Of a stretch of 64,000 nucleotides of DNA, positions 13,145-33,981 are shown piece by piece. Location: NCBI GenBank assembly GCA_026683435.1, contig GCA_026683435.1_4866.1; one strand, written 5' to 3'. Position 1 is the stretch's first letter, and the number at the start of each line of letters is the position of its first letter. The stretch is from a phage. The position numbers were made by a program, and so were the translations under genes. The notes under the pieces were generated by a model that had not been told where the DNA came from, did not search any database, and saw only the letters and a list, made by a program, of their open reading frames with translations.

Positions 13145-13636
13145 ATGAAACGTCTATTTATCGTATTCGCGATTATAAACCTGTTGGCCGGTTGTGTTCA
13201 GTCGCCAAGCAACATAGGACAATTTAGCGCCACACCAGTAAAGAATCACGACTTGGTGATTTATACATGCACAGGGACGCAGGAGAAGTTTGTAGACTAC
13301 CGTCCGGTACTGGACAACCTACAAATGATGCCGCGGTCAGTAACAGTAATGGATGTGGGTGCAAACTGGGTAGCAGCGTGGGACGGTGGCAAACTAGAGT
13401 CACCGATGATGTTTAAAGATACAATTGGCAAAATCGACGGGAATGTTAACACCACCACAGGTGAGCGTTATTACCGTATTAATAAAACCGTAAACGATAG
13501 CCCCACTTATTCTTTTTCGGATGTGAACCCGTATACCGGCGAAGGTAAAGGGATGACATTCTTTCGCTGCAGCAGCGGGTTTATCGGTGAAGTTCCTACT
13601 CCGATTACGATTGTTCCGTTAGAAGAAAATAAATAG
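13145..13636 (+). CDS. putative lipoprotein (163 aa)
   Basis: N-terminal signal peptide with lipobox LLAGC. Followed by a strong hairpin terminator. Confidence 0.65.
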   Translation: MKRLFIVFAIINLLAGCVQSPSNIGQFSATPVKNHDLVIYTCTGTQEKFVDYRPVLDNLQMMPRSVTVMDVGANWVAAWDGGKLESPMMFKDTIGKIDGNVNTTTGERYYRINKTVNDSPTYSFSDVNPYTGEGKGMTFFRCSSGFIGEVPTPITIVPLEENK

Positions 13637-13640
13637 TGTT

Positions 13641-13680
13641 TACCCACTCCCGTAAGGGGAGTGGGTAAGGGCTTTATTTA
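13641..13680 (+). terminator. intrinsic terminator
   Basis: Stem TACCCACTCCC/GGGAGTGGGTA with GTAA loop, then GCTTTATTTA. Confidence 0.6.
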
Positions 13681-13761: not shown

Positions 13762-14277
13762 TTAGATTTTAACTAGCTTGCTCCAATCGATGGGTTGTTG
13801 CTTAACCACTTTAACGGTACCACGTGTCGGTGACCAGAAGGTGATATCAGGCTGGTTGCGTACGTCAACATGCAGCCAGGTAATATCGCACTCGATAAAG
13901 TGAATAAACGGAAACTCGTTAGGGTTCGCGGCAATATAGTCGTGTACTTTCTGCAACGGAGTATCAAGCATTGTTGCATCAAACGCATTACCGAATTTAT
14001 GCATACTGCCCGATTCGGCGTACAGTTTGTTTGCACGAGTTTGCCAATCGCCACCCTTTGGTTTCTCTTGATTAATAAAGAACTGCAGGGTACGCAGACT
14101 ACGCTGTTGCTGGGAACTGGTTAAAATCACCATCCGCCCAAAACGATTACGAATCTGTTGGAGCGAGATTAGCAGTAACGGATTAAGGAAACGAATAGCA
14201 CCTTCGCCGTATTTCGCGATGTACTCCTGCGGCATCAACTCTTTTAACGCGAAGTTGGCAGGATTCGGATGAAACAT
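13762..14277 (-). CDS. zinc peptidase, M15-like (peptidoglycan peptidase candidate)
   Basis: 'SGSMHKFGNAFDA' (H..G.A.D) and 'WLHVDVR' motifs are typical of the M15/YcbK-like fold. Adjacent to the endolysin region. Confidence 0.55.
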   Translation of the reverse strand: MFHPNPANFALKELMPQEYIAKYGEGAIRFLNPLLLISLQQIRNRFGRMVILTSSQQQRSLRTLQFFINQEKPKGGDWQTRANKLYAESGSMHKFGNAFDATMLDTPLQKVHDYIAANPNEFPFIHFIECDITWLHVDVRNQPDITFWSPTRGTVKVVKQQPIDWSKLVKI

Positions 14278-14286
14278 TTTCTCTCC

Positions 14287-14928
14287 TTAAGGGGCAGTCA
14301 GGAACGCACGTTTGATATTCAAATACTGCACGTTTACCGGTTGCCCATTAGTAATGTCAACACGTTCGTGTTCAGGAATCGCTAACGTACGCGACGTTCT
14401 AAAGAACAGGTAGTTGCGATTATAGGACAACGTCTTTTCTACCGGCCGGCTATAAACCACTTTAGAGTTATCGTCTACATAGGACGGCCAACCAAACTCG
14501 TGAACGGCACGGTAGAAGGACTTACGAATAAAGGTGTCAACGCCTAATGCCTCCATGATGCGTAAGAACATCAGGTCAGCGAATGTTTTGTCGCAAGCAC
14601 GAGATAGATTACCTTCAACGGTGTCAGGGTAAAAGCCTACCGATGAACGTTTCTGGTAAAACAAATCATGCACACAAGCGGCAGCAGCCCAAGGCCCATC
14701 CGGATGCAGGATAGGACGTAACGCTTCTGGAATGCTTGCCAGGTCCGTCACAAATCCTTTCGGTACCGTTACCCATAACGGGGTATCCGGATGCACACCT
14801 GCTAATGCTACCATCGCATCCATTCCGGCGTGTTCACGATAGAGGCTGCGCAACGTAAACTCGAAATGGAAATCATCCGTGAGGATAAACCACGGCTTCT
14901 CTAACAACTTATACTTAAGTGCTTCCAT
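14287..14928 (-). CDS. DUF1353-like protein (213 aa)
   Basis: 'PKGFVTDLASIP' and 'CVHDLFY' motifs match my recollection of DUF1353. Confidence 0.5.
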   Translation of the reverse strand: MEALKYKLLEKPWFILTDDFHFEFTLRSLYREHAGMDAMVALAGVHPDTPLWVTVPKGFVTDLASIPEALRPILHPDGPWAAAACVHDLFYQKRSSVGFYPDTVEGNLSRACDKTFADLMFLRIMEALGVDTFIRKSFYRAVHEFGWPSYVDDNSKVVYSRPVEKTLSYNRNYLFFRTSRTLAIPEHERVDITNGQPVNVQYLNIKRAFLTAP

Positions 14929-14935
14929 ACTGACC

Positions 14936-15028
14936 TCACGTCATATAACGCACGAGCATCGTGAGGACCATTAATCCCAGTAAAATGGGCATTAAGCCTT
15001 TCGGCCAGTCGTCGTTGTCGTATTGCAT
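14936..15028 (-). CDS. possible very small membrane protein (30 aa; below ORF-track cutoff)
   Basis: GGAGGG RBS 8 nt upstream of the ATG. MQYDNDDWPKGLMPILLGLMVLTMLVRYMT has one hydrophobic helix. Coordinates hand-derived. Confidence 0.3.
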   Translation of the reverse strand: MQYDNDDWPKGLMPILLGLMVLTMLVRYMT

Positions 15029-15118
15029 GGCTTTACCCTCCGACAGAAGATCGCGCGTAATAGTTTGAAGAACCCAGAATCGTAATACGTTTCCGGAACG
15101 GTTTGTACTTCGGGGAAC

Positions 15119-15220
15119 TTAGGCGGAGTTGGACGGTGGGTCATTACGTTTTCTCCTTGCGGCAAAAACAAGGGCGCGCCAGATAGCTTTCATTAAGGCA
15201 GCAAACCAATTCTGTTTCAT
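15119..15220 (-). CDS. possible small ORF (33 aa) coupled to the endolysin stop
   Basis: ATGA overlap with the endolysin stop. MKQNWFAALMKAIWRALVFAARRKRNDPPSNSA has a hydrophobic N-terminus then a basic stretch. Hand-derived. Confidence 0.3.
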   Translation of the reverse strand: MKQNWFAALMKAIWRALVFAARRKRNDPPSNSA

Positions 15221-15834
15221 TTGCACATCCCCAACTTAGCCACGTAGTCTGGCATTTCCTGATAGACGCGGCCATACCAGCCGTAAGTAAACTCTTCGTT
15301 ATCCTCACGCCCTTCACTGATTTCCGTGTAGTACGCAACCTGATGACAGGTTAAAGCGAACATCAGTCGATTCAGGCCCTCTTCCCCACGGGCTTTGATG
15401 AAGCCTTCTAACGCTGTTAACGTACGTGGCCCGATACCACCATCGGCATCGATATCATCGTATAGTTTACCCTGACGGTTTAATACGTTCAGAATACGTT
15501 GCAGGGACTTGATACAGTTACCGCGTCCTGCGTTGATGCCGAAGTCAAACATCCGGTCAGCTAGCAGGACATTCATTTTCATAATCTGGTCTAAGCGCAT
15601 CCGCTGCCACCAGAGCTTGTTGTAAATGTCTAACGCGATTTCTAAGCTCAGGTCACGCATATCCCCTTTATAGCCATATTCTCGCGCAGTGAGTTCAGTG
15701 ACACCGCGGTTCGTTGCTTTGCCCAAATCTTTCGGGTTATTAACGTAACCGGCTTCGATGTTTACTTTGGCACGAATAATGCCCTCTTTACTCCAACGAT
15801 CGACCACGATAACCTCCTGAGTTGATAGGGTCAT
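15217..15834 (-). CDS. endolysin, GH108-like muramidase with C-terminal peptidoglycan-binding-like region
   Basis: N-terminal 'EAGYVNNPKDLGKATNRGVT' resembles the GH108 E-G-G-Y motif. Internal ATG (MTLSTQEV) chosen because the longer ORF start lies inside the upstream terminator hairpin. Confidence 0.55.
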   Translation of the reverse strand: MTLSTQEVIVVDRWSKEGIIRAKVNIEAGYVNNPKDLGKATNRGVTELTAREYGYKGDMRDLSLEIALDIYNKLWWQRMRLDQIMKMNVLLADRMFDFGINAGRGNCIKSLQRILNVLNRQGKLYDDIDADGGIGPRTLTALEGFIKARGEEGLNRLMFALTCHQVAYYTEISEGREDNEEFTYGWYGRVYQEMPDYVAKLGMCK

Positions 15835-15866
15835 AAAAAGAAAGCCTCTTCCCCGTGGGGAAGAGG
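15831..15866 (-). terminator. intrinsic terminator for the upstream fibre gene
   Basis: Stem CCTCTTCCCC/GGGGAAGAGG with T-run on the minus strand. Confidence 0.5.
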
Positions 15867-15912
15867 GCATGGATTATCTTTAGGCTTTAAACCCGTCAAG
15901 TTCCTCGTTAAA

Positions 15913-18090
15913 TTACGATAACGGTATCGTTGGCCGCACCCACGGTTTAGGGGCAGATTTGGTATACGGATTACATTCCATCATTTTACCGAGATACGCA
16001 TCGTAATACACGAAGCGATCGACGTAGAACTTCTCCACCGGTGCACTACTGGTAGCCGATTTCACCCGGTTGCGTTCCACAGCGAGGCTAATCGCCCCGG
16101 TAGGTGCGGGTTTTAGCGTGAACATCACCGCGCGGTTGTAACGCCAAGTGTCGTGCACAATATCAAACTCCGATACACAGTGTGCCATGATACCAAACAA
16201 TGTGGTGGCTGGTAAGTTGGCTACAGCATCGCCGTATGGTGTTCCCACCAAACCGCCGGGTATGTTTTGCTTTTGGAACAGCGTACCTGAAATAATCGTA
16301 CCTAAGAACTCCACAACTACAGGCTTGGTTGGGTCGGTGACTTTATCTATCCCATCCGCACTGGCCAATCGGTTGGCATCTAAATCTGCGAGGTAGTCGA
16401 GGAACTCTTGGTACTCGTTGGTGACATTCGGTTTCACCGTTCCGACGGATACCCAGTTGACGATACTTTTATTCCCACCGACGGCTTCGCCTGCCATCCC
16501 AGGGCGAGTCCATGACATCCCGTCTTCACGACCGTAGACATAGATCGGCGAGCCGGTAGCCGGGGTGTTCCATTGCTCGAACGCTGTATATCGTCCCGGC
16601 TGGCCCCAATCCCCACCCGGACCGCCATAGTAGCGACTCTGGTAGCCGGTAAATTGTGCGACGACTAACTGAGTAGCACCGCCTTTGTCACGGGACCCAG
16701 CTAAGCCGTTACGGTTATTGGTGCCGCTGGGCACCACCGCGCCTGTCCCGAGTGGCGCACCACCAGCTCCACCGATCTTGGTGGTGCTAAACGCATAGTA
16801 GTCGCCCCCACCCCCACCTCCGGCGATGGTGCCGTAGTTTTCGATGGTGACTTTGCCACGGAAGGCATCGGTAATGTGGATTGCGTCAGCTCCGTCTGCT
16901 GATGTGTTCGCAGGCAGAGAATAGACCATACCCGAACCACCACGACCAAGAATGGTTCCCCGGTTAACGAAGTTCCAAACCACCTCGCCAATTTGCGGCA
17001 ATTCGTCGATAACGAACGTCGGTTTCAGGTTGCTGTCGCGATAAACGAAAGCCCCCGCATCTACGGTCACGTTAACAAACAAACGCCCGCACGCCGCATG
17101 GTTGGTCAACGTCGTGGCCCAGTAGCTGTCCGAAACTTGCGACGTAGTTGTGTAGTTCAGGTTAAGGGTTTGCTCGTTATCTTGATAGCGTGCCACATTC
17201 AACGTGGCACTGCCCATGACTTTGTACGAACCCTCCACGGGTGCCAATTGCACTTGTCTTGGCCACTCGCCTGTCAAGTTCTCTACAGGAGCAATTTCGT
17301 TTACATCAAAAACACTCCGAATGCCGAGTGTCTCGATGGCCAGAGCATCGTGCAGGCTACCGGTGAAATCATCCGGGACGTATGTGGTTTTGCCTGCATA
17401 TGTCTCGAGTTTGTTACGTGAAAAGAACACATACTTCGTTCCAAACATCCCGCTCCCCGGTCTAGCGGTCAAAGCTACGACGCTGTTATACGCAGAGGTT
17501 TGGCCTATATCCTCCGGGGACATAGGGGAGCTGACATCGACTTTATCAAGATCCACGATCCGTTTGGTTGCATTAGAGTAGAAGTTAATCCACTGCTGTT
17601 TATTCGCAGCCTTTAGCGTGAGAATGATGTTGGTAACAGTGTAGACGGTGTTGATATCCACGTCACCGTTTATCACATCTAGCGTTTGGCTGCCGTACCA
17701 GATAAGACTTGTCTGTTTCGTCTGGAACGTGATGCGCGCAGCATTGTTTGTCCAAGTGATAGGCAGGTCTTCAAAGTCGTCAGTTAAAAAGGTAATCCCT
17801 AGTAGAGTGTCTAAATGCGGCAACAGTTCGTGGATGGACGCACAAGTGGGAATGGCATCCAACTTAACCTTGGCGAAATAATCAGCAATATTTTGCTTCG
17901 TGACTTGGGCCGTAATTTGACCGTAATTTGAATACCCCGGACCCCCTGTCAGTGTGACGTCTAGGGTTTTTTCGTCACGATGCGCCACGGACACCAGGCG
18001 TACGTTAGCGGGGTCTACTGCTTTGGCGACCGCGTTTTTACGGTTGAGCGACCGAATCACGGTCGCCACTAAATCAGGAGTGTAGGACAT
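15913..18090 (-). CDS. large tail-fibre or receptor-binding-like protein (725 aa)
   Basis: Gly-rich segments (GGGGGDYYAFSTTKIGGAGGAP). C-terminal 'YTKSAPKPWVRP' is shared with the next gene. Confidence 0.7.
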   Translation of the reverse strand: MSYTPDLVATVIRSLNRKNAVAKAVDPANVRLVSVAHRDEKTLDVTLTGGPGYSNYGQITAQVTKQNIADYFAKVKLDAIPTCASIHELLPHLDTLLGITFLTDDFEDLPITWTNNAARITFQTKQTSLIWYGSQTLDVINGDVDINTVYTVTNIILTLKAANKQQWINFYSNATKRIVDLDKVDVSSPMSPEDIGQTSAYNSVVALTARPGSGMFGTKYVFFSRNKLETYAGKTTYVPDDFTGSLHDALAIETLGIRSVFDVNEIAPVENLTGEWPRQVQLAPVEGSYKVMGSATLNVARYQDNEQTLNLNYTTTSQVSDSYWATTLTNHAACGRLFVNVTVDAGAFVYRDSNLKPTFVIDELPQIGEVVWNFVNRGTILGRGGSGMVYSLPANTSADGADAIHITDAFRGKVTIENYGTIAGGGGGGDYYAFSTTKIGGAGGAPLGTGAVVPSGTNNRNGLAGSRDKGGATQLVVAQFTGYQSRYYGGPGGDWGQPGRYTAFEQWNTPATGSPIYVYGREDGMSWTRPGMAGEAVGGNKSIVNWVSVGTVKPNVTNEYQEFLDYLADLDANRLASADGIDKVTDPTKPVVVEFLGTIISGTLFQKQNIPGGLVGTPYGDAVANLPATTLFGIMAHCVSEFDIVHDTWRYNRAVMFTLKPAPTGAISLAVERNRVKSATSSAPVEKFYVDRFVYYDAYLGKMMECNPYTKSAPKPWVRPTIPLS

Positions 18091-27658: not shown

Positions 27659-28546
27659 TTATACCTCGCTTGGATCGTCCAGATCGTTGAACTGGAGATA
27701 CAACGTTCCGACGATGGTGGTACAGGTAACAGGCAGTTTCAACACCAGCGCATACTTGTACTTCGCGTTTGTCGGCATTGCAACAGGGTCATTCAGACCA
27801 ACGCTGATAACCTCCGCGCCCGCCAAACCGTAGGAAGCGGAAGTGGTCGCTACCCATGCAGTACCCGTGATATCTTTCAGCAGGTTAACCATATCCGTCA
27901 ACGGCTGTCCAGACAGAATACCCGGCTTGTATGCCAGCAGAGCATCTCGGTACTTAGTGAAGTTGTACGGGTAGGAATAGACCTCTGCAATGACCGCAGT
28001 AACATTTTCGGAACCCATCTGACCGTTCGGGTATTTCAGACCGGTCAGGACGTTAGTAGTGACCGCAGAGACTAACGACTCATCGCCTTTCACGACTTTA
28101 AATGTCGCCTGTCCAACCCAACCGATAGACTCTGGATGTGCAACAACACGCACAGTACCTTCGGTCTTATCACCGTTCCATTCGATATCTGCGTCCTGCA
28201 GGTCAGCTTCTTCCAGAACAAAACCGTAACGTTGGTTCAGTCCAGGAATGGCCGCATACAAGGTTTCGTTGGATGGGCCGATCGCCAACGTGTCACCAAT
28301 CAACACTAACAAGTCTTCGACTTTCATGCGGTTGTAGAAGACATTTTTCTTACCCGACCAGGTAGAGCCCGTTACCCCATCTGCCGTAATTTTAATTTGC
28401 GTGTTACGGTTAGTCAGCGTTTCCTTTTCCGTACCACGGATGTCCTTTGGCGTGGACCAGATGATGTCAGTCATCTTAACAGCAAGCGAGTTCTGTGCGT
28501 TCACTGCTGCCAACAGGACGTCTTTAGAAGGTTGATAAATAGCCAT
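27659..28546 (-). CDS. paralogue-family protein (295 aa)
   Basis: N-module 'VFYNRMKVEDLL'; C-terminal 'LYLQFNDLD'. Confidence 0.75.
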   Translation of the reverse strand: MAIYQPSKDVLLAAVNAQNSLAVKMTDIIWSTPKDIRGTEKETLTNRNTQIKITADGVTGSTWSGKKNVFYNRMKVEDLLVLIGDTLAIGPSNETLYAAIPGLNQRYGFVLEEADLQDADIEWNGDKTEGTVRVVAHPESIGWVGQATFKVVKGDESLVSAVTTNVLTGLKYPNGQMGSENVTAVIAEVYSYPYNFTKYRDALLAYKPGILSGQPLTDMVNLLKDITGTAWVATTSASYGLAGAEVISVGLNDPVAMPTNAKYKYALVLKLPVTCTTIVGTLYLQFNDLDDPSEV

Positions 28547-28556
28547 TCGCTAATTC

Positions 28557-29414
28557 CTAGTTGTTGTAGTGCAACATACACTCGCCGATTACTTTCGGGT
28601 CGTTCTGAATGCCGGTAATCAGCAATACGTTATCGTACGCTTTATTGGCGGTCGCCAACTCACTCGTTTTGTAGCGGGTAATTGTGCAGTTCGTCGGATC
28701 AAACGACGGTACCCCACGTGCGACCAATGTGGCCATCAGATTGGACGTGTAACCCAAATCAAAGTTACTTCCTACGTCCATTCGCCCGTTCTTAAACGAG
28801 GCCATAACCTGCACTTCATCGGTAAAGTCTTCCCCGTACGTCAAGAAGCCCATGTATTTCTTACCAGTGCTTGCTGCTGCAGGGTGGTTCAAAGCCAACA
28901 AGATGTCGTTTACCACGAGGTCTTCGAGGCTATTCTTACCCCGGATAGACATAAAGGTGATGCTGCCAGTGTATTGGATACAGCTAGCGTTAATACGCAT
29001 CGTGTTGTTTACGTTCAGATAAACGTATTGTTCTGGGATATCATCTGCAACCAGGTTTAATCCATAACGACCGTTCAGGTTCTGCGCAAACGCAGTACGT
29101 TTCGACTCCACGTTCAACCAACCGTAGGCATTCGGTGCAGTTACCTGAGGTGTCATGTTCTTAAATAAGTCGTTCAGCGACAAGCGCTTATAACGGAACG
29201 TTTGAGGACCGATATAACCACGACCTTGACGACCACGAATGATAATCTCGGTGTTGGCACCGCTTGCTGTCGGTGTGATTGCTTTCGGCGTACCGATGAT
29301 AGCATTGTCTAAACCCATCGGTAGAACAGCATCCGGGTTTTCGGCATTAATCGCATCGTACAGATATTGTCGCTGAGACAGACTATATAAAGCCATAATA
29401 GCCTCCTCGGCCAA
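28557..29414 (-). CDS. paralogue-family protein (285 aa)
   Basis: GAGGAGG RBS. N-module 'TFRYKRLSLNDLF'; C-terminal 'MLHYNN'. Confidence 0.75.
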   Translation of the reverse strand: MAEEAIMALYSLSQRQYLYDAINAENPDAVLPMGLDNAIIGTPKAITPTASGANTEIIIRGRQGRGYIGPQTFRYKRLSLNDLFKNMTPQVTAPNAYGWLNVESKRTAFAQNLNGRYGLNLVADDIPEQYVYLNVNNTMRINASCIQYTGSITFMSIRGKNSLEDLVVNDILLALNHPAAASTGKKYMGFLTYGEDFTDEVQVMASFKNGRMDVGSNFDLGYTSNLMATLVARGVPSFDPTNCTITRYKTSELATANKAYDNVLLITGIQNDPKVIGECMLHYNN

Positions 29415-29465
29415 AAAAGAAAGGAGTAGCCAGGAGGAGGATTTCCTCCTCCCAGCGAGGCCTAA

Positions 29466-30377
29466 TTAGGCATTAAAGTGCAGGTACATGATACCCTGGA
29501 AGTTGGTGCACAGAGTGTCATCCAGCTGCAGCAGCAGAACCTGGTTGTAAGCAGTGTTTGCACCTTCAACCGGTTTCTTAGGTTCGTCGCCTGAAGCAGT
29601 GCCATCGTCAGTAGTAGAACCAACGTACAACACGTTAGCGCCTTTCAGGTTATAATCCGCAGGCTTATCAGATGCAACCCACAGTTCCGGCACAACTTTA
29701 TTCAGCTCAACCGGGAATGCAGAGTCGCCAGCGATAACACCTTTCGCCTGTACTTTCAGGAATGCTGCGATTGCTGTGCAGTCTACACCGTAAGAGTAGA
29801 TGTAACCCTGACCCTTCGCAGCGCTTGGACCATCTGGGTAAACCAGGCCGTCGAGCTTGGTTTGTGTTACCACCAGACTCAGACGTTCACCAACCTGAGG
29901 CTTAGCACCGATTTTAACCGGGATGCTGCCCAGATAAGCGTAGCAGTCTTCTTTGAAAGTAATGACGTGGTCAACCGGTGCTGGGTCCGGATCGTTCGGG
30001 TTAGTCAGCGGCGGGTTGGTATTTTCCGGAATAGCCGCCGGAACGATATCGTCTTCGGTCAGCTTCAATCCGTATTGGGTGTTCAGGGTCGTCAGCAGGT
30101 CGGTGGTGGTTTTCGGCAGTTTAACGTCGAGGTATGCGGTTACATTACGGAACAGCGCACTGCCTTCCAGGCGATTATAAGTCACGTCCTGAGTACCGAT
30201 GTACCCGGAGTTCTTTTTCGCAGTCAGGGTCATGCTGGTATTGCGATCGGCACCTTCATCGCTAATAGGGGTCGGTGTGCCGAGCGTTATTTTAGAAAGT
30301 TCCAGTTCTGCGTCTGGGTTTTTCTCATTAATAAAATCCAGAACCAGCTTATCGGACGTTTTGTTTAAAGGTTTCAT
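29466..30377 (-). CDS. paralogue-family protein (303 aa)
   Basis: N-module 'DVTYNRLEGSALF'; C-terminal 'MYLHFNA'. Confidence 0.75.
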   Translation of the reverse strand: MKPLNKTSDKLVLDFINEKNPDAELELSKITLGTPTPISDEGADRNTSMTLTAKKNSGYIGTQDVTYNRLEGSALFRNVTAYLDVKLPKTTTDLLTTLNTQYGLKLTEDDIVPAAIPENTNPPLTNPNDPDPAPVDHVITFKEDCYAYLGSIPVKIGAKPQVGERLSLVVTQTKLDGLVYPDGPSAAKGQGYIYSYGVDCTAIAAFLKVQAKGVIAGDSAFPVELNKVVPELWVASDKPADYNLKGANVLYVGSTTDDGTASGDEPKKPVEGANTAYNQVLLLQLDDTLCTNFQGIMYLHFNA

Positions 30378-32905: not shown

Positions 32906-33004
32906 CGCGTTAACTCGAGTTAAGGGATTATTGAGGTCGTAAGATTTTTAGACCCCCTGCCAGCATATTAAAAGCGTAGTGCGTACCAGAATCCGAACAA
33001 GAGC

Positions 33005-33052
33005 AAACAAAAAAAGAAAAGGAAACAAAAAAGAAGGGGAGCCGAAGCTCCC
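33005..33052 (-). terminator. intrinsic terminator (possibly bidirectional)
   Basis: Stem GGGAGC/GCTCCC with TTCG loop on the minus transcript, then a long T-run. Confidence 0.5.
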
Positions 33053-33083
33053 TTTTCTTCACGACTATATCCTCAATCGTCGA

Positions 33084-33302
33084 TTAACAGACCCACACAA
33101 GGCCGTTATTCTTTGGGCGGTCTTTAACACCGTAGGTTACTTCAACATTGTCAATCTTTTTTTCGTCGTCTTTCATTGTATTCATGAAAGCTTTGGCTTC
33201 TGCTGCAGACATTTTCAGCAGCAGGTCAATCATGTCGGGCTTACGTTTGGCTGCGGTTTCAACAACAGGTTTGATTTCAGATTTGGAGAACAGGTTGCGC
33301 AT
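33084..33302 (-). CDS. hypothetical small protein (72 aa)
   Basis: ORF with lysine-rich composition in the leftward early-type block. Confidence 0.5.
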   Translation of the reverse strand: MRNLFSKSEIKPVVETAAKRKPDMIDLLLKMSAAEAKAFMNTMKDDEKKIDNVEVTYGVKDRPKNNGLVWVC

Positions 33303-33363
33303 GGGATATTCCTTTTTTGTAGATTGCGGGTGAATTGGCGGGACTTTGCCCGCCGGGTTATTA

Positions 33364-33810
33364 TTAGTGTACTTCTTTTTCTAAACGCAGGCGATGCGTC
33401 GCTAAGGCAACCGCGCGGTTTTCGAATTCAAGACTGAATGGACTGATTTGTGCCATGTATTTCTTTACAACATCGTCAGAGACAACTTGACGACGATAAT
33501 CACGAATCATTTCAGCGAAGCTGCTAGTAGGAAGTTCGTCGTATTCGATTTCCATACCACGTCTATTGATGTAATACGAAGCAACCATGTCGTTAAACAT
33601 TACGTCACCGGCTTCACCTAAAGGGAACTCGTCACGTGTGGGTTCCGTAGTCTGGAACGTGGCTTCTTTGGCGTTGGCGATAATCTCTTCGAAGTCCTCA
33701 GTAGTGAATTCGCTAGGGTCTTGTTTGTTGGCCGCCATCACGATTAGGAAAGAAATCATAATCGGGTTTTTGCTAGCGTACTTAGTAAGTTCGTTATTCA
33801 GAATGTACAT
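33364..33810 (-). CDS. hypothetical protein (148 aa)
   Basis: AAGGAG RBS, preceded by the conserved upstream motif. Confidence 0.65.
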   Translation of the reverse strand: MYILNNELTKYASKNPIMISFLIVMAANKQDPSEFTTEDFEEIIANAKEATFQTTEPTRDEFPLGEAGDVMFNDMVASYYINRRGMEIEYDELPTSSFAEMIRDYRRQVVSDDVVKKYMAQISPFSLEFENRAVALATHRLRLEKEVH

Positions 33811-33856
33811 GTTAAAACTCCTTAAGATAATGGTCGATTAGATAAGAGTTAATGGT

Positions 33857-33887
33857 TAACTCTCACCTAAGTAATATATATCTGAAA
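33857..33887 (-). promoter_or_regulatory. conserved upstream motif, copy 1 (putative phage promoter or operator)
   Basis: TAACTCTCACCTAAGTAATATATATCTGAAA on the plus strand, identical to 52611-52641, about 45-75 nt upstream of the ATG. Confidence 0.5.
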
Positions 33888-33904
33888 ATAATTGTAATCG
33901 GACT

Positions 33905-33945
33905 AGACAAAAAAAGAAGAAACCCTACTCCCGAAGGAGTAGGGT
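33905..33945 (-). terminator. intrinsic terminator
   Basis: Stem CCCTACTCC/GGAGTAGGG with UUCG loop on the transcript, then T-run. Confidence 0.55.
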
Positions 33946-33981
33946 ACTGCTTTATTCGCTACCCTTGGGATAAGCGTCATC

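What the first reader, a model, noticed from the sequence alone, without database searches (positions are those of the whole stretch)
14936..15220. Unannotated small ORFs with hydrophobic segments immediately downstream of the endolysin
Seen: a 33-codon ORF shares ATGA with the endolysin stop (MKQNWFAALMKAIWRALVFAARRKRNDPPSNSA), and a 30-codon ORF with a good GGAGGG RBS encodes MQYDNDDWPKGLMPILLGLMVLTMLVRYMT with one predicted transmembrane helix. A 49-codon proline-rich ORF with an AAGGAG RBS overlaps them. All are below the 60-aa ORF-track cutoff. Inference: candidate lysis accessory genes (holin- or spanin-like peptides), since no holin is otherwise evident next to the endolysin.
Basis: partly seen in the sequence, partly recalled or inferred. 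Interest (0 to 1): 0.4.

Follow-up and report, generated by a model that had tools for sequence, protein, structure and literature searches.

The report
Three overlapping membrane-peptide genes after endolysin
The gap after the cell-wall-degrading enzyme of this giant Salmonella phage holds three real, overlapping genes for tiny membrane-active peptides that sit where phages usually keep their hole-forming lysis protein, but their function is untested and they are not spanins.

Summary
The window is an SPN3US-like jumbo phage (Seoulvirus). The three small ORFs exist as described, on the minus strand: A 15220-15119 (33 aa, ATGA overlap with the endolysin stop), B 15144-14992 (50 aa, not 49), C 15028-14936 (30 aa). 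All three are protein-coding. Against relatives about 70% identical in DNA, each keeps its frame, start and overlaps; synonymous sites are near saturation while dN is 0.09-0.37.

They form a mosaic slot between the GH108 endolysin and a DUF1353 gene. Related lineages carry A alone, A+B, A+B+C, a B-C fusion, C alone, another TM peptide, or nothing.

A is a hydrophobic helix with a narrow cationic stripe and an RRKR tail. B ends in a short cationic amphipathic helix. C is a single-pass peptide with an acidic N-terminus.

They are not spanins: none has a lipobox, and SPN3US carries a spanin pair (gp204/gp205, homologous to the curated CR5 spanins) 44 kb away. They match no known holin family.

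In unrelated phages the same position, between an endolysin and DUF1353 or directly after a GH108 endolysin, holds small TM proteins, some of them holin-like. Best reading: inner-membrane lysis accessory peptides (holin, antiholin or release factor), confidence about 0.45. A rival holin candidate (gp200) lies near the spanins.

The parts
15217..15834 (-). Endolysin (SPN3US gp156 homologue): GH108 muramidase plus PG_binding_3 domain, with no signal or SAR sequence.
   Evidence: Pfam Glyco_hydro_108 7.8e-18 and PG_binding_3 5.3e-19. PDB relatives 6v3z and 6v40, E 1.7e-41. Not in the virion mass-spectrometry table of PMC5105663.
15119..15220 (-). ORF A, 33 aa. Its start shares ATGA with the endolysin stop. 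It has a hydrophobic helix with a narrow cationic stripe (N4, K11, R15, R22), then RRKR.
   Evidence: Identical at the amino-acid level in 27 Seoulvirus records. Homologues in SPAsTU, pEa_SNUABM_29, phiEaH2, Asesino and the L043 group. dN 0.05-0.37 with synonymous sites saturated in the more divergent pairs. phrog_25143 E 3.4e-12. Net charge +6, muH 0.53. Polar residues lie within a +-20 degree arc.
15153..15158 (-). Shine-Dalgarno AAGGAG for ORF B, embedded in A's Arg-Arg codons (AGG AGA).
   Evidence: Read directly from the sequence. A GGAG/GAGG-type motif is kept at the same place in the relatives.
14992..15144 (-). ORF B, 50 aa, in a different frame from A and C. It has a proline-rich N-terminal module (PTPPKFPEVQTVPETY), a cationic amphipathic helix (GFFKLLRAIFCRRV), and a non-conserved 13-aa tail (KPCNTTTTTGRKA), the last 11 aa of which were added by loss of the ATGA stop seen in SPAsTU.
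   Evidence: For the B2 module, dN is 0.09-0.12 in all but the near-identical SPAsTU/pEa_SNUABM_29 pair, with 8-11 of 11-15 differences at third positions. The B1 module is shared with the N-terminus of the B-C fusion peptides: 9-10 of 16 aa identical, with 5-6 synonymous codon changes. Annotated in EC001.
15036..15041 (-). Shine-Dalgarno GGAGGG for ORF C, embedded in B's Arg-Arg-Val codons.
   Evidence: Read directly from the sequence. CGGAGAG is kept in SPAsTU and pEa_SNUABM_29.
14936..15028 (-). ORF C, 30 aa: acidic N-terminus (DNDDWP), one TM helix, and a short basic C-terminus. The predicted topology is N-out/C-in.
   Evidence: KD19 1.81-2.31 across homologues. Aligns with the DDPP-TMD peptides of Machinavirus-type phages. 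dN 0.26-0.34 with saturated synonymous sites against SPAsTU and pEa_SNUABM_29. Annotated in several relatives.
14287..14928 (-). DUF1353 protein (SPN3US gp157). It starts 7 nt after the C stop and marks the downstream edge of the peptide slot.
   Evidence: Pfam DUF1353 1.2e-17. phrog_1158 'tail assembly chaperone'. In other phages it often follows an endolysin or a small TM protein.
13762..14277 (-). M15-like peptidoglycan peptidase (SPN3US gp158), the last gene of the unit.
   Evidence: phrog_894 endolysin 2.8e-26. Weak Pfam Peptidase_M15_3 match. Reported among virion proteins in PMC5105663.
15845..15866 (-). Terminator-like GC-rich hairpin with a T-tract that runs into the endolysin start codon. 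It is the upstream boundary of the endolysin-A-B-C-DUF1353-M15 unit.
   Evidence: 9 pairs, 6 of them G-C, tail CTTTCTTTTT.

Best explanation
The 288-nt 'gap' between the endolysin and the DUF1353 gene is fully coding. It holds three overlapping, translationally coupled small genes inside one unit: endolysin -> A -> B -> C -> DUF1353 -> M15-like peptidase.

Shown:
- All three are under purifying selection as proteins.
- Their ribosome-binding sites lie inside the preceding gene's arginine codons.
- The slot is a mosaic of modules (A, B1, B2, C) that are kept, lost, fused or swapped between related jumbo phages.

Inferred from sequence properties:
- A is a 17-18-residue hydrophobic helix with all its polar and cationic residues on one narrow stripe, followed by a polybasic RRKR anchor that should stay in the cytoplasm.
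- B carries a short cationic amphipathic helix.
- C is a single-pass peptide with an acidic N-terminus outside and a basic C-terminus inside.

Inferred from position:
- The three act at the inner membrane as the lysis accessory set of the signal-less GH108 muramidase.
- A is made in step with the endolysin by termination-reinitiation at ATGA.
- Either the peptides permeabilise the membrane or trigger release of the enzyme (holin-like), or they tune the timing of a holin encoded elsewhere (antiholin or regulator).

They are not spanins.

Sub-confidences: real genes 0.95; membrane-active 0.8; role in lysis about 0.45.
For: Coding:
- Frames, starts and overlaps are kept at about 70% DNA identity.
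- Sd/S is 0.7-1.0 and dN is 0.09-0.37 at about 70% DNA identity in each ORF's own frame.
- 11 of 17 close-group changes are synonymous.
- A is identical in 27 records.

Properties:
- A has net charge +5 to +7 and muH 0.53-0.61. C and its relatives have KD19 1.8-2.4.
- A's polar stripe spans +-20-32 degrees and is conserved in the three closer lineages (SPAsTU, phiEaH2, Asesino); in the L043 group a core stripe persists (N2, K6, K13, K20) with wider scatter.

Coupling to the endolysin:
- An ATGA or GTGA stop-start overlap occurs in the SPN3US group, SPAsTU/pEa_SNUABM_29, Erskinevirus and the L043 group, where A is the only gene in the slot.
- The endolysin has no export signal and is absent from the virion mass-spectrometry table, so it needs a membrane lesion to reach the wall.

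Positional analogy:
- 'Endolysin -> small TM protein -> DUF1353' recurs with unrelated endolysins. Examples are a GH24 lysozyme with a 53-60-aa two-TMD protein (L083/L085), an M15 peptidase with an approximately 95-aa N-terminal-TMD protein (L054/L068 groups), and a 72-aa two-TMD protein with weak holin PHROG hits (L094).
- Distant GH108 endolysins are often followed, with stop-start overlap, by multi-TMD proteins. One of these is Pfam GTA_holin_3TM, 8e-11.
- 16 of the 17 lineages examined have at least one membrane-active peptide in the slot.

A terminator-like hairpin upstream delimits the unit.
Against: - There are no hits to any holin, antiholin or other annotated family, and no homologues outside this phage clade.
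- C, at 30 aa, and A, at 33 aa, are about half the size of the smallest holins I know of (own knowledge). C's predicted N-out/C-in topology is opposite to class III holins such as phiKZ gp142 (PMC12894885).
- A's helix is only marginally hydrophobic (KD19 about 1.0).
- pEa_SNUABM_6 has no small ORF between the endolysin and DUF1353, and no detectable C-like gene elsewhere. Erskineviruses lack C and Machinaviruses lack A, so no single peptide is indispensable.
- A second lysis-like locus lies outside the window: SLT transglycosylase gp198, two-TMD gp200, and spanins gp204/gp205. It offers a more conventional holin candidate.
- DUF1353 also follows tail-fibre genes in many phages, so adjacency may reflect only the boundary between tail and lysis genes.
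- I had no expression or proteomic data for the peptides.
Confidence: 0.45

Rival explanations
1. The ORFs are real small membrane proteins with no role in lysis. They would be accessory 'moron-like' peptides in a hypervariable slot, for example for superinfection exclusion, modulation of a host membrane protein, or help to the DUF1353 or tail module. Their place next to the endolysin would then be incidental.
For: - Slot content varies between close lineages and is empty in pEa_SNUABM_6.
- The families are confined to one phage clade.
- DUF1353 is named 'tail assembly chaperone' in PHROGs and often follows tail-fibre genes.
- More conventional lysis candidates lie elsewhere in the genome.
Against: - A-type peptides keep a stop-start overlap with the endolysin in four lineages.
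- The same slot in unrelated phages holds TM proteins next to unrelated endolysins.
- High turnover with non-homologous replacement is also typical of holins (own knowledge).
Confidence: 0.3
2. A, and the B2 helix, are disruptin-like cationic amphipathic peptides in the manner of phiKT gp28. They would weaken the outer membrane, or both membranes, at lysis rather than act as holins.
For: - A is 33 aa with net charge +6, and is helical and amphipathic (muH 0.53-0.61). B has net charge +6 in the window.
- Both lie beside the endolysin.
- The gp28 description gives 56 aa, net +7, an amphipathic helix, and screening cut-offs of under 80 aa and at least +4 (bioRxiv 10.1101/515445).
Against: - Disruptins were proposed for phages without spanins. 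SPN3US-type phages carry a syntenic homologue of the curated CR5 spanin pair.
- A is far more hydrophobic than LL-37-type peptides: 13-15 of 19 helix residues are hydrophobic and the polar arc is only about 40-60 degrees. That fits insertion into a membrane better than lying on its surface.
- Machinavirus-type relatives have no cationic peptide in the slot.
Confidence: 0.1
3. A is not a separate protein. It would be joined to the endolysin by a -1 frameshift at AAA-TGA, giving a fraction of endolysin a C-terminal membrane anchor.
For: A's frame is -1 relative to the endolysin and begins inside its last codons, and this geometry is kept in four lineages.
Against: - There is no canonical slippery heptamer. 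The sequence is GC-AAA-TGA in the window and C-AAG-TGA in SPAsTU.
- A has its own ATG or GTG and a G-rich Shine-Dalgarno-like motif 7-8 nt upstream in every lineage, as expected for termination-reinitiation.
Confidence: 0.03
4. The ORFs are chance open frames in a non-coding spacer or a structured RNA region.
For: They are very short. Some annotations omit them.
Against: - Each shows frame-specific purifying selection in two different frames.
- Starts and Shine-Dalgarno motifs are conserved.
- A matches a PHROG family at E 3.4e-12 and the related B-C fusion peptide matches another at 2e-13.
- No Rfam family matches the region.
Confidence: 0.02

Closest known systems
Phage holins and antiholins (lambda S105/S107, T4 T/RI, phiKZ gp142 class III; PMC12894885)
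   Same: They are small and membrane-targeted, and they are encoded beside a signal-less endolysin in a late unit. A has the charged, basic C-terminal tail typical of holins. Families in this class turn over fast, with non-homologous replacement in the same slot.
   Different: - The peptides are 30-50 aa, against roughly 57 aa and above for the holins I know of.
- There are no family matches.
- C's predicted topology is N-out/C-in, whereas class III holins are N-in/C-out.
- A's helix is only marginally hydrophobic.
- There are three overlapping peptides rather than one gene, or one gene with dual starts.
- Function is untested.
Disruptin phiKT gp28 (bioRxiv 10.1101/515445)
   Same: A and B are small, cationic (at least +4 in most homologues), predicted helical and amphipathic, lack a signal sequence, and lie next to lysis genes.
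   Different: The host phage is not spaninless. A is much more hydrophobic and has a narrow polar stripe.
GH108 endolysin followed by a 3-TM holin (Pfam GTA_holin_3TM type), as in locus L131
   Same: The endolysin family is the same, and the next gene starts at or over the endolysin stop codon.
   Different: The downstream partner there is a 126-aa three-TMD protein of a curated holin family. Here it is three peptides of 30-50 aa with at most one TMD each.
Two-component spanins (lambda Rz/Rz1; CR5_183/CR5_184 in Kongari et al. 2018, PMC6139136)
   Same: Both are small envelope proteins of lysis cassettes, and overlapping gene arrangements are common in both.
   Different: A, B and C have no lipobox cysteine and no periplasmic coiled-coil domain. 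The phage's spanin homologues are gp204/gp205, 44 kb away.
PHROG families phrog_25143 and phrog_26367 (unknown function)
   Same: A matches phrog_25143 (3.4e-12). The B-C fusion peptides match phrog_26367 (2e-13).
   Different: These families carry no functional annotation. B and C of the window match no PHROG at E up to 1.

Membership tests
Holin (functional class) | At least one transmembrane domain | tested here: inconclusive
   C meets it (KD19 1.81; homologues reach 2.3). A is borderline (KD15 1.57, KD19 0.92, with K11 and R15 inside the helix). B does not meet it (KD19 0.39).
Holin (functional class) | Encoded next to the endolysin in the same transcription unit | tested here: met
   A overlaps the endolysin stop (ATGA). 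A, B and C are packed with overlaps, and a terminator-like hairpin lies upstream of the endolysin.
Holin (functional class) | Sequence membership of a described holin family (Pfam, PHROGs) | tested here: not met
   No Pfam hit at E up to 1. The only PHROG hits are to families of unknown function. No BLAST similarity between phiKZ gp142 and the SPN3US genome.
Holin (functional class) | Timed lethal hole formation, premature triggering by energy poisons, and complementation of lambda S | not testable with these tools
   This needs expression in a lambda Sam lysogen and DNP triggering, as done for phiKZ gp142 (PMC12894885).
Two-component spanin (i-spanin / o-spanin) | o-spanin: lipoprotein signal with a lipobox cysteine | tested here: not met
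   A and C contain no Cys. B has C34 and C40, but no signal peptide or lipobox.
Two-component spanin (i-spanin / o-spanin) | i-spanin: N-terminal TMD followed by a periplasmic coiled-coil domain of about 100 aa | tested here: not met
   The peptides are 30-50 aa. C has only 4 residues after its TMD. The phage's own spanin-type pair is gp204/gp205: 38% and 31% identity to CR5_183 and CR5_184, with lipobox LLTGC.
Unimolecular spanin (T1 gp11 type) | N-terminal lipoprotein signal plus a C-terminal TMD | tested here: not met
   No lipoprotein signal in A, B or C.
Disruptin (phiKT gp28 type) | Small (under 80 aa), net charge at least +4, predicted amphipathic helix, no membrane-targeting signal | tested here: met
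   A: 33 aa, +6, muH 0.53. B: 50 aa, +6.
Disruptin (phiKT gp28 type) | Phage lacks any spanin or lipoprotein gene | tested here: not met
   A spanin-type pair, gp204/gp205, is present in SPN3US. A lipoprotein, gp159, lies in the window at 13145-13636.
Disruptin (phiKT gp28 type) | Complements the lambda Rz/Rz1 defect; the synthetic peptide is antibacterial | not testable with these tools
   Experimental.
phrog_25143 (unknown function) | Significant match to the family profile over its full length | tested here: met
   A residues 1-29 match profile positions 1-29 of 35, E 3.4e-12.

The most novel reading that the evidence does not exclude
The slot encodes a minimalist, modular hole-forming system in place of a conventional holin. 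A would be a 33-aa helix with a cationic stripe, made stoichiometrically with the endolysin by stop-start coupling. It would oligomerise in the inner membrane to release the enzyme, with B and C as interchangeable partner or antagonist peptides. That would make these the smallest holin-type proteins known, and an example of a lysis function built from swappable peptide modules (A alone, A+B, A+B+C, a B-C fusion, C alone).
Probability: 0.12. Interest if true: 0.7.

Novelty: new variant of a known kind. Interest (0 to 1): 0.42.

Why it matters
No holin has been described for SPN3US-type jumbo phages in the papers I could search. The phiKZ lysis cassette was published only in 2026 (PMC12894885), and its holin and regulator have no detectable homologue here.

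If A, B and C control release of the GH108 muramidase, three things follow:
- They would be an unusually small, modular solution to crossing the inner membrane.
- They would give a defined target for engineering the lysis timing of Salmonella and Erwinia biocontrol phages.
- They would add a clear case of three overlapping genes whose ribosome-binding sites are written in the arginine codons of the preceding peptide.

If they are not lysis genes, the practical result is an annotation fix. Most records of this phage group miss one, two or all three of these conserved genes.

Tried and rejected
- Pfam on A, B and C gave nothing. Rfam on 14700-16000 gave nothing.
- PDB sequence searches of the DUF1353 and M15-like neighbours were uninformative.
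Repeated with the 52-aa B-C fusion first, it found only relatives in the same clade.
- An exhaustive phmmer search with A against 1.84 billion representatives found two true relatives and one spurious repetitive ORF.
- tblastn with A and with the B-C peptide against the phage collection found nothing significant outside the clade.
- BLAST of phiKZ gp141, gp142 and gp143 against the whole SPN3US genome found no homologues. Only the KZ144 catalytic domain matched, hitting gp198 and the large tail protein.
- Literature searches for an SPN3US holin, lysis genes or gp156 found nothing relevant. The SPN3US infection proteome paper (PMC6384053) is not held, so I could not check for peptide detection.
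- The spanin idea was rejected on sequence features and on the presence of gp204/gp205.
- A programmed frameshift joining B to C was considered and rejected. There is no slippery heptamer, and C has its own strong GGAGGG site.
- The lipoprotein gp159 (13145-13636, + strand) was considered as an o-spanin and set aside. It is on the opposite strand, has no upstream i-spanin partner, and is 163 aa long.
- Structure prediction was not run. Single short helices would be uninformative, and multimer input is not available.
Full report
**Identity of the window.** The region is 99% identical to Salmonella phage SPLA1a and 96.5% identical to SPN3US, both jumbo phages of the genus Seoulvirus. The window is reverse-complemented relative to SPN3US and covers roughly its 87-151 kb. 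The genes of interest lie on the minus strand:
- endolysin, 15834-15217 (SPN3US gp156; Pfam Glyco_hydro_108 7.8e-18 and PG_binding_3 5.3e-19; PDB relatives 6v3z and 6v40);
- a DUF1353 protein, 14928-14287 (gp157);
- an M15-like peptidase, 14277-13762 (gp158; phrog_894 'endolysin' 2.8e-26).

**Observation.** The three ORFs are present as described.
- A runs 15220-15119 and encodes 33 aa. Its ATG shares ATGA with the endolysin TGA.
- B runs 15144-14992 and encodes 50 aa, not 49. AAGGAG lies 8 nt upstream of its ATG.
- C runs 15028-14936 and encodes 30 aa. GGAGGG lies 7 nt upstream of its ATG.
- A and C share a frame, and B is in another. B overlaps A by 26 nt and C by 37 nt, and C ends 7 nt before the DUF1353 start. 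The 288-nt 'gap' is therefore fully covered by ORFs.
- The Shine-Dalgarno site for B is written in A's Arg-Arg codons (AGG AGA). The site for C is written in B's Arg-Arg-Val codons (CGG AGG GTA).
- Annotation is patchy. RefSeq SPN3US has none of the three. SPLA1a, phage 1252, SPFM19 and SaP7 have only C. EC001 has only B. SPAsTU has B and C. Asesino has the A homologue.

**Are they genes?** Yes, for all three.
- *Frames and signals.* In SPAsTU and Erwinia phage pEa_SNUABM_29, about 70% identical in DNA, all three ORFs persist with the same order, starts and overlaps. There A starts with GTG inside GTGA, and B ends in ATGA with C.
- *Substitution pattern.* I ran Nei-Gojobori counts on the alignable cores. 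In each ORF's own frame, synonymous sites are near or at saturation (Sd/S 0.7-1.0). At about 70% DNA identity dN is 0.11-0.37 for A, 0.09-0.12 for B2 and 0.26-0.34 for C, and lower for the closest pairs. Differences pile up at third positions, for example 2/1/8 and 3/1/10 by codon position for B2.
- *Close relatives.* Within the SPN3US group, 11 of 17 in-ORF substitutions are synonymous in their own frame, and the rest are conservative (A8T, F33L, M13I, V21A, L25F). A is identical at the amino-acid level in 27 records.
- *Family matches.* A matches phrog_25143 (3.4e-12) and the B-C fusion peptides match phrog_26367 (2e-13). Both families have unknown function. No Rfam family matches the region.

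**A mosaic slot.** I compared 17 lineages. The occupants of the slot between the endolysin and DUF1353 are as follows.

| Lineage | Occupants of the slot |
|---|---|
| SPN3US group | A + B (B1+B2) + C |
| SPAsTU, pEa_SNUABM_29 | A + B (different N-terminus + B2) + C |
| Erskinevirus (phiEaH2, Asesino, L006) | A + B2 only |
| Metagenomic jumbo lineage (L043-L047, L053) | A-type peptide alone (MNWFAKLLALLWKALTSGRKRKDEKRGQEFFWFL), again overlapping the endolysin stop |
| Caitlin, pEa_SNUABM_4, L008 | One 49-52-aa ORF joining B1 (KPVPPVFPEVQVIREEY) to a C-like DDDPPP-TMD |
| ChrisDB, Huxley, pEa_SNUABM_10 | C-like peptide of 38-44 aa |
| Wellington group | A different 33-37-aa TM peptide |
| pEa_SNUABM_6 | Nothing (9-nt gap) |

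B1 is shared at the protein level between the window's B and the fusion peptides. 9-10 of 16 residues are identical, with 5-6 synonymous codon differences. The window's B has an 11-aa extra tail because the ATGA stop seen in SPAsTU became ATGC. The families are confined to this clade.

**Properties.**
- *A* has net charge +5 to +7. Of the 19 residues from NWF onward, 13-15 are hydrophobic. All polar residues (N4, T8 in some, K/R11, R15, R22) fall within a +-20-32 degree arc. That is a narrow cationic stripe on an otherwise hydrophobic helix. It is followed by RRKR and a short polar tail. In the more distant L043 group a core stripe persists (N2, K6, K13, K20), but the polar residues scatter more widely. 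KD15 is 1.5-1.6 and KD19 about 1.0, so A is marginal as a TM helix but too hydrophobic for a typical surface-lying antimicrobial peptide.
- *B2* (GFFKLLRAIFxRRV) is a short cationic amphipathic helix. It shares the L-[LM]-[KR]-A-I-[WF] core with A. This may indicate paralogy, but I consider that speculative.
- *C* and its relatives have an acidic, proline-containing N-terminus, one clear TM helix (KD19 1.8-2.4) and one basic residue after it. By the positive-inside rule this predicts N-out/C-in.

**Not spanins.**
- None of the three has a lipobox or a periplasmic domain.
- Kongari et al. 2018 curate CR5_183/CR5_184 as a separated i-spanin/o-spanin pair.
- SPN3US gp204 and gp205 (180.0-181.0 kb, outside the window) are their syntenic homologues. 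Identities are 38% (E 1e-25) and 31% (E 7e-19). gp204 has a TMD plus a helical region, and gp205 has the lipobox LLTGC.

**Holin candidates elsewhere.**
- No product in RefSeq SPN3US is named holin or spanin.
- A hydropathy scan of the whole genome finds an 86-aa two-TMD protein (gp200, 176428-176688). It lies between an SLT transglycosylase and the spanins. The transglycosylase is gp198 (Pfam SLT 1.4e-6), and its catalytic domain matches KZ144 at 4e-10.
- The scan also finds two-TMD proteins of 63 and 67 aa at 171.4-171.9 kb.
- gp200 is detectable only in Seoulvirus and is 42% identical in SPAsTU.
- The phiKZ spanin, holin and regulator (gp141, gp142, gp143; PMC12894885) have no BLAST homologue in SPN3US.

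So 'no holin evident' is true next to gp156 but not for the genome.

**Evidence linking the slot to lysis.**
1. gp156 has no signal or SAR sequence. It is absent from the virion mass-spectrometry table, which lists gp138-155 and gp160 (PMC5105663 Table S4). It therefore behaves as a cytoplasmic endolysin that needs a membrane lesion.
2. A-type peptides keep a stop-start overlap with the endolysin in four lineages, which argues for coupled synthesis.
3. Across 80 viral loci with DUF1353 homologues, the upstream neighbour is an endolysin of at least three unrelated classes (GH108, GH24 Phage_lysozyme, Peptidase_M15_4) in 7 of 36 clusters, and a tail-fibre protein in others.
4. In several of those loci a small TM protein sits between the endolysin and DUF1353. 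Examples are a GH24 lysozyme followed by a 53-60-aa two-TMD protein (L083/L085), and an M15 peptidase followed by an approximately 95-aa protein with an N-terminal TMD (L054/L068 groups). L094 has a 72-aa two-TMD protein with weak hits to three holin PHROGs directly before DUF1353.
5. Among 80 more distant GH108 loci, the 40-46%-identity group has multi-TMD proteins starting at or over the endolysin stop. One of them (L131) is Pfam GTA_holin_3TM at 8e-11.

Position therefore favours a holin-type role, but only by analogy.

**Evidence against a holin role.**
- The peptides match no holin family.
- They are very small.
- C's predicted topology is opposite to class III holins.
- No single peptide is universally present, and the slot is empty in pEa_SNUABM_6.
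- A more conventional candidate exists near the spanins.
- DUF1353 may simply mark the junction between tail and lysis genes.

**Verdict.**
The ORFs are real, membrane-active peptides coupled to the endolysin. They are not spanins, and they are not members of any known holin family.
- The most likely role is an inner-membrane lysis accessory function, as holin, antiholin or release factor. I put confidence in that at about 0.45.
- The main rival is a set of small membrane proteins unrelated to lysis (0.3), followed by disruptin-like action (0.1).
- The functional claim rests on position and physico-chemistry. It needs the complementation and knock-out experiments listed under next steps.

Noticed in passing
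window 15845-15866 (- strand): A terminator-like hairpin (CCTCTTCCCCACGGGGAAGAGG, then CTTTCTTTTT) ends directly at the endolysin ATG. Its 3' arm contains the only purine-rich, Shine-Dalgarno-like stretch (GAAGAGG) upstream of that start. Endolysin translation, and the coupled translation of A, could therefore depend on the folding of this hairpin.
   Followed up: partly
window 13145-13636 (+ strand): A 163-aa lipoprotein (MKRLFIVFAIINLLAGC..., lipobox LLAGC; SPN3US gp159; phrog_9559, unknown function) converges on the endolysin unit. A strong hairpin at 13639-13669 lies between the two. It is not an o-spanin by context, because there is no upstream i-spanin partner. Its function is unknown.
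   Followed up: partly
window 13762-14277 (- strand): The unit ends with a second peptidoglycan hydrolase candidate, gp158 (M15-like; phrog_894 2.8e-26). PMC5105663 lists it among virion proteins. The operon therefore mixes a non-virion muramidase with a possibly virion-borne peptidase.
   Followed up: partly
L029 (SPN3US 147-197 kb): 28058-28780, 29428-29688, 32978-33976; outside the window: A second lysis-like locus holds SLT transglycosylase gp198 (catalytic domain like KZ144), the 86-aa two-TMD protein gp200 (unannotated in most relatives), and the spanin-type pair gp204/gp205. None of these is named as a lysis gene in the RefSeq record.
   Followed up: partly
L029 24400-24882 (SPN3US 171400-171882): Two adjacent small proteins of 63 and 67 aa each appear to have two TM helices (phrog_16515 and phrog_18173, unknown function). 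They are further unassigned holin-like candidates.
   Followed up: no
L100 about 1990-2790: In one small-phage contig the DUF1353 protein appears to begin with a lipoprotein signal (MRHLILIPVLSIALSGC...) directly after a GH108 endolysin. This hints that some DUF1353 proteins work in the cell envelope rather than as tail chaperones.
   Followed up: no
L140, L142, L144, L174, L183, L185, L191, L194, L195 (just after the GH108 stop): Many distant GH108 endolysins in environmental viral contigs are followed by a conserved 36-52-aa cysteine-rich peptide, with a 4-nt stop-start overlap (for example MSKYCQNCGRQHEGRLVETFTDGDG...). It looks like a zinc ribbon. Its function is unknown.
   Followed up: no
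window 15221-15226 (- strand); same place in L006, L007 and L022: An in-frame GTG two or three codons upstream of A's ATG would add MQ in the window, or MLK in Erskineviruses. This resembles the dual-start motif of lambda S107/S105. No Shine-Dalgarno site serves it, so it may mean nothing.
   Followed up: no
PMC5105663 Table S4 versus the annotation of window 15913-18090 (- strand): The 725-aa protein upstream of the endolysin (gp155) is labelled 'tail fiber adhesin Gp38' in SPFM19. In the published mass spectrometry, however, it is detected in tailless particles, so the label is probably wrong.
   Followed up: partly
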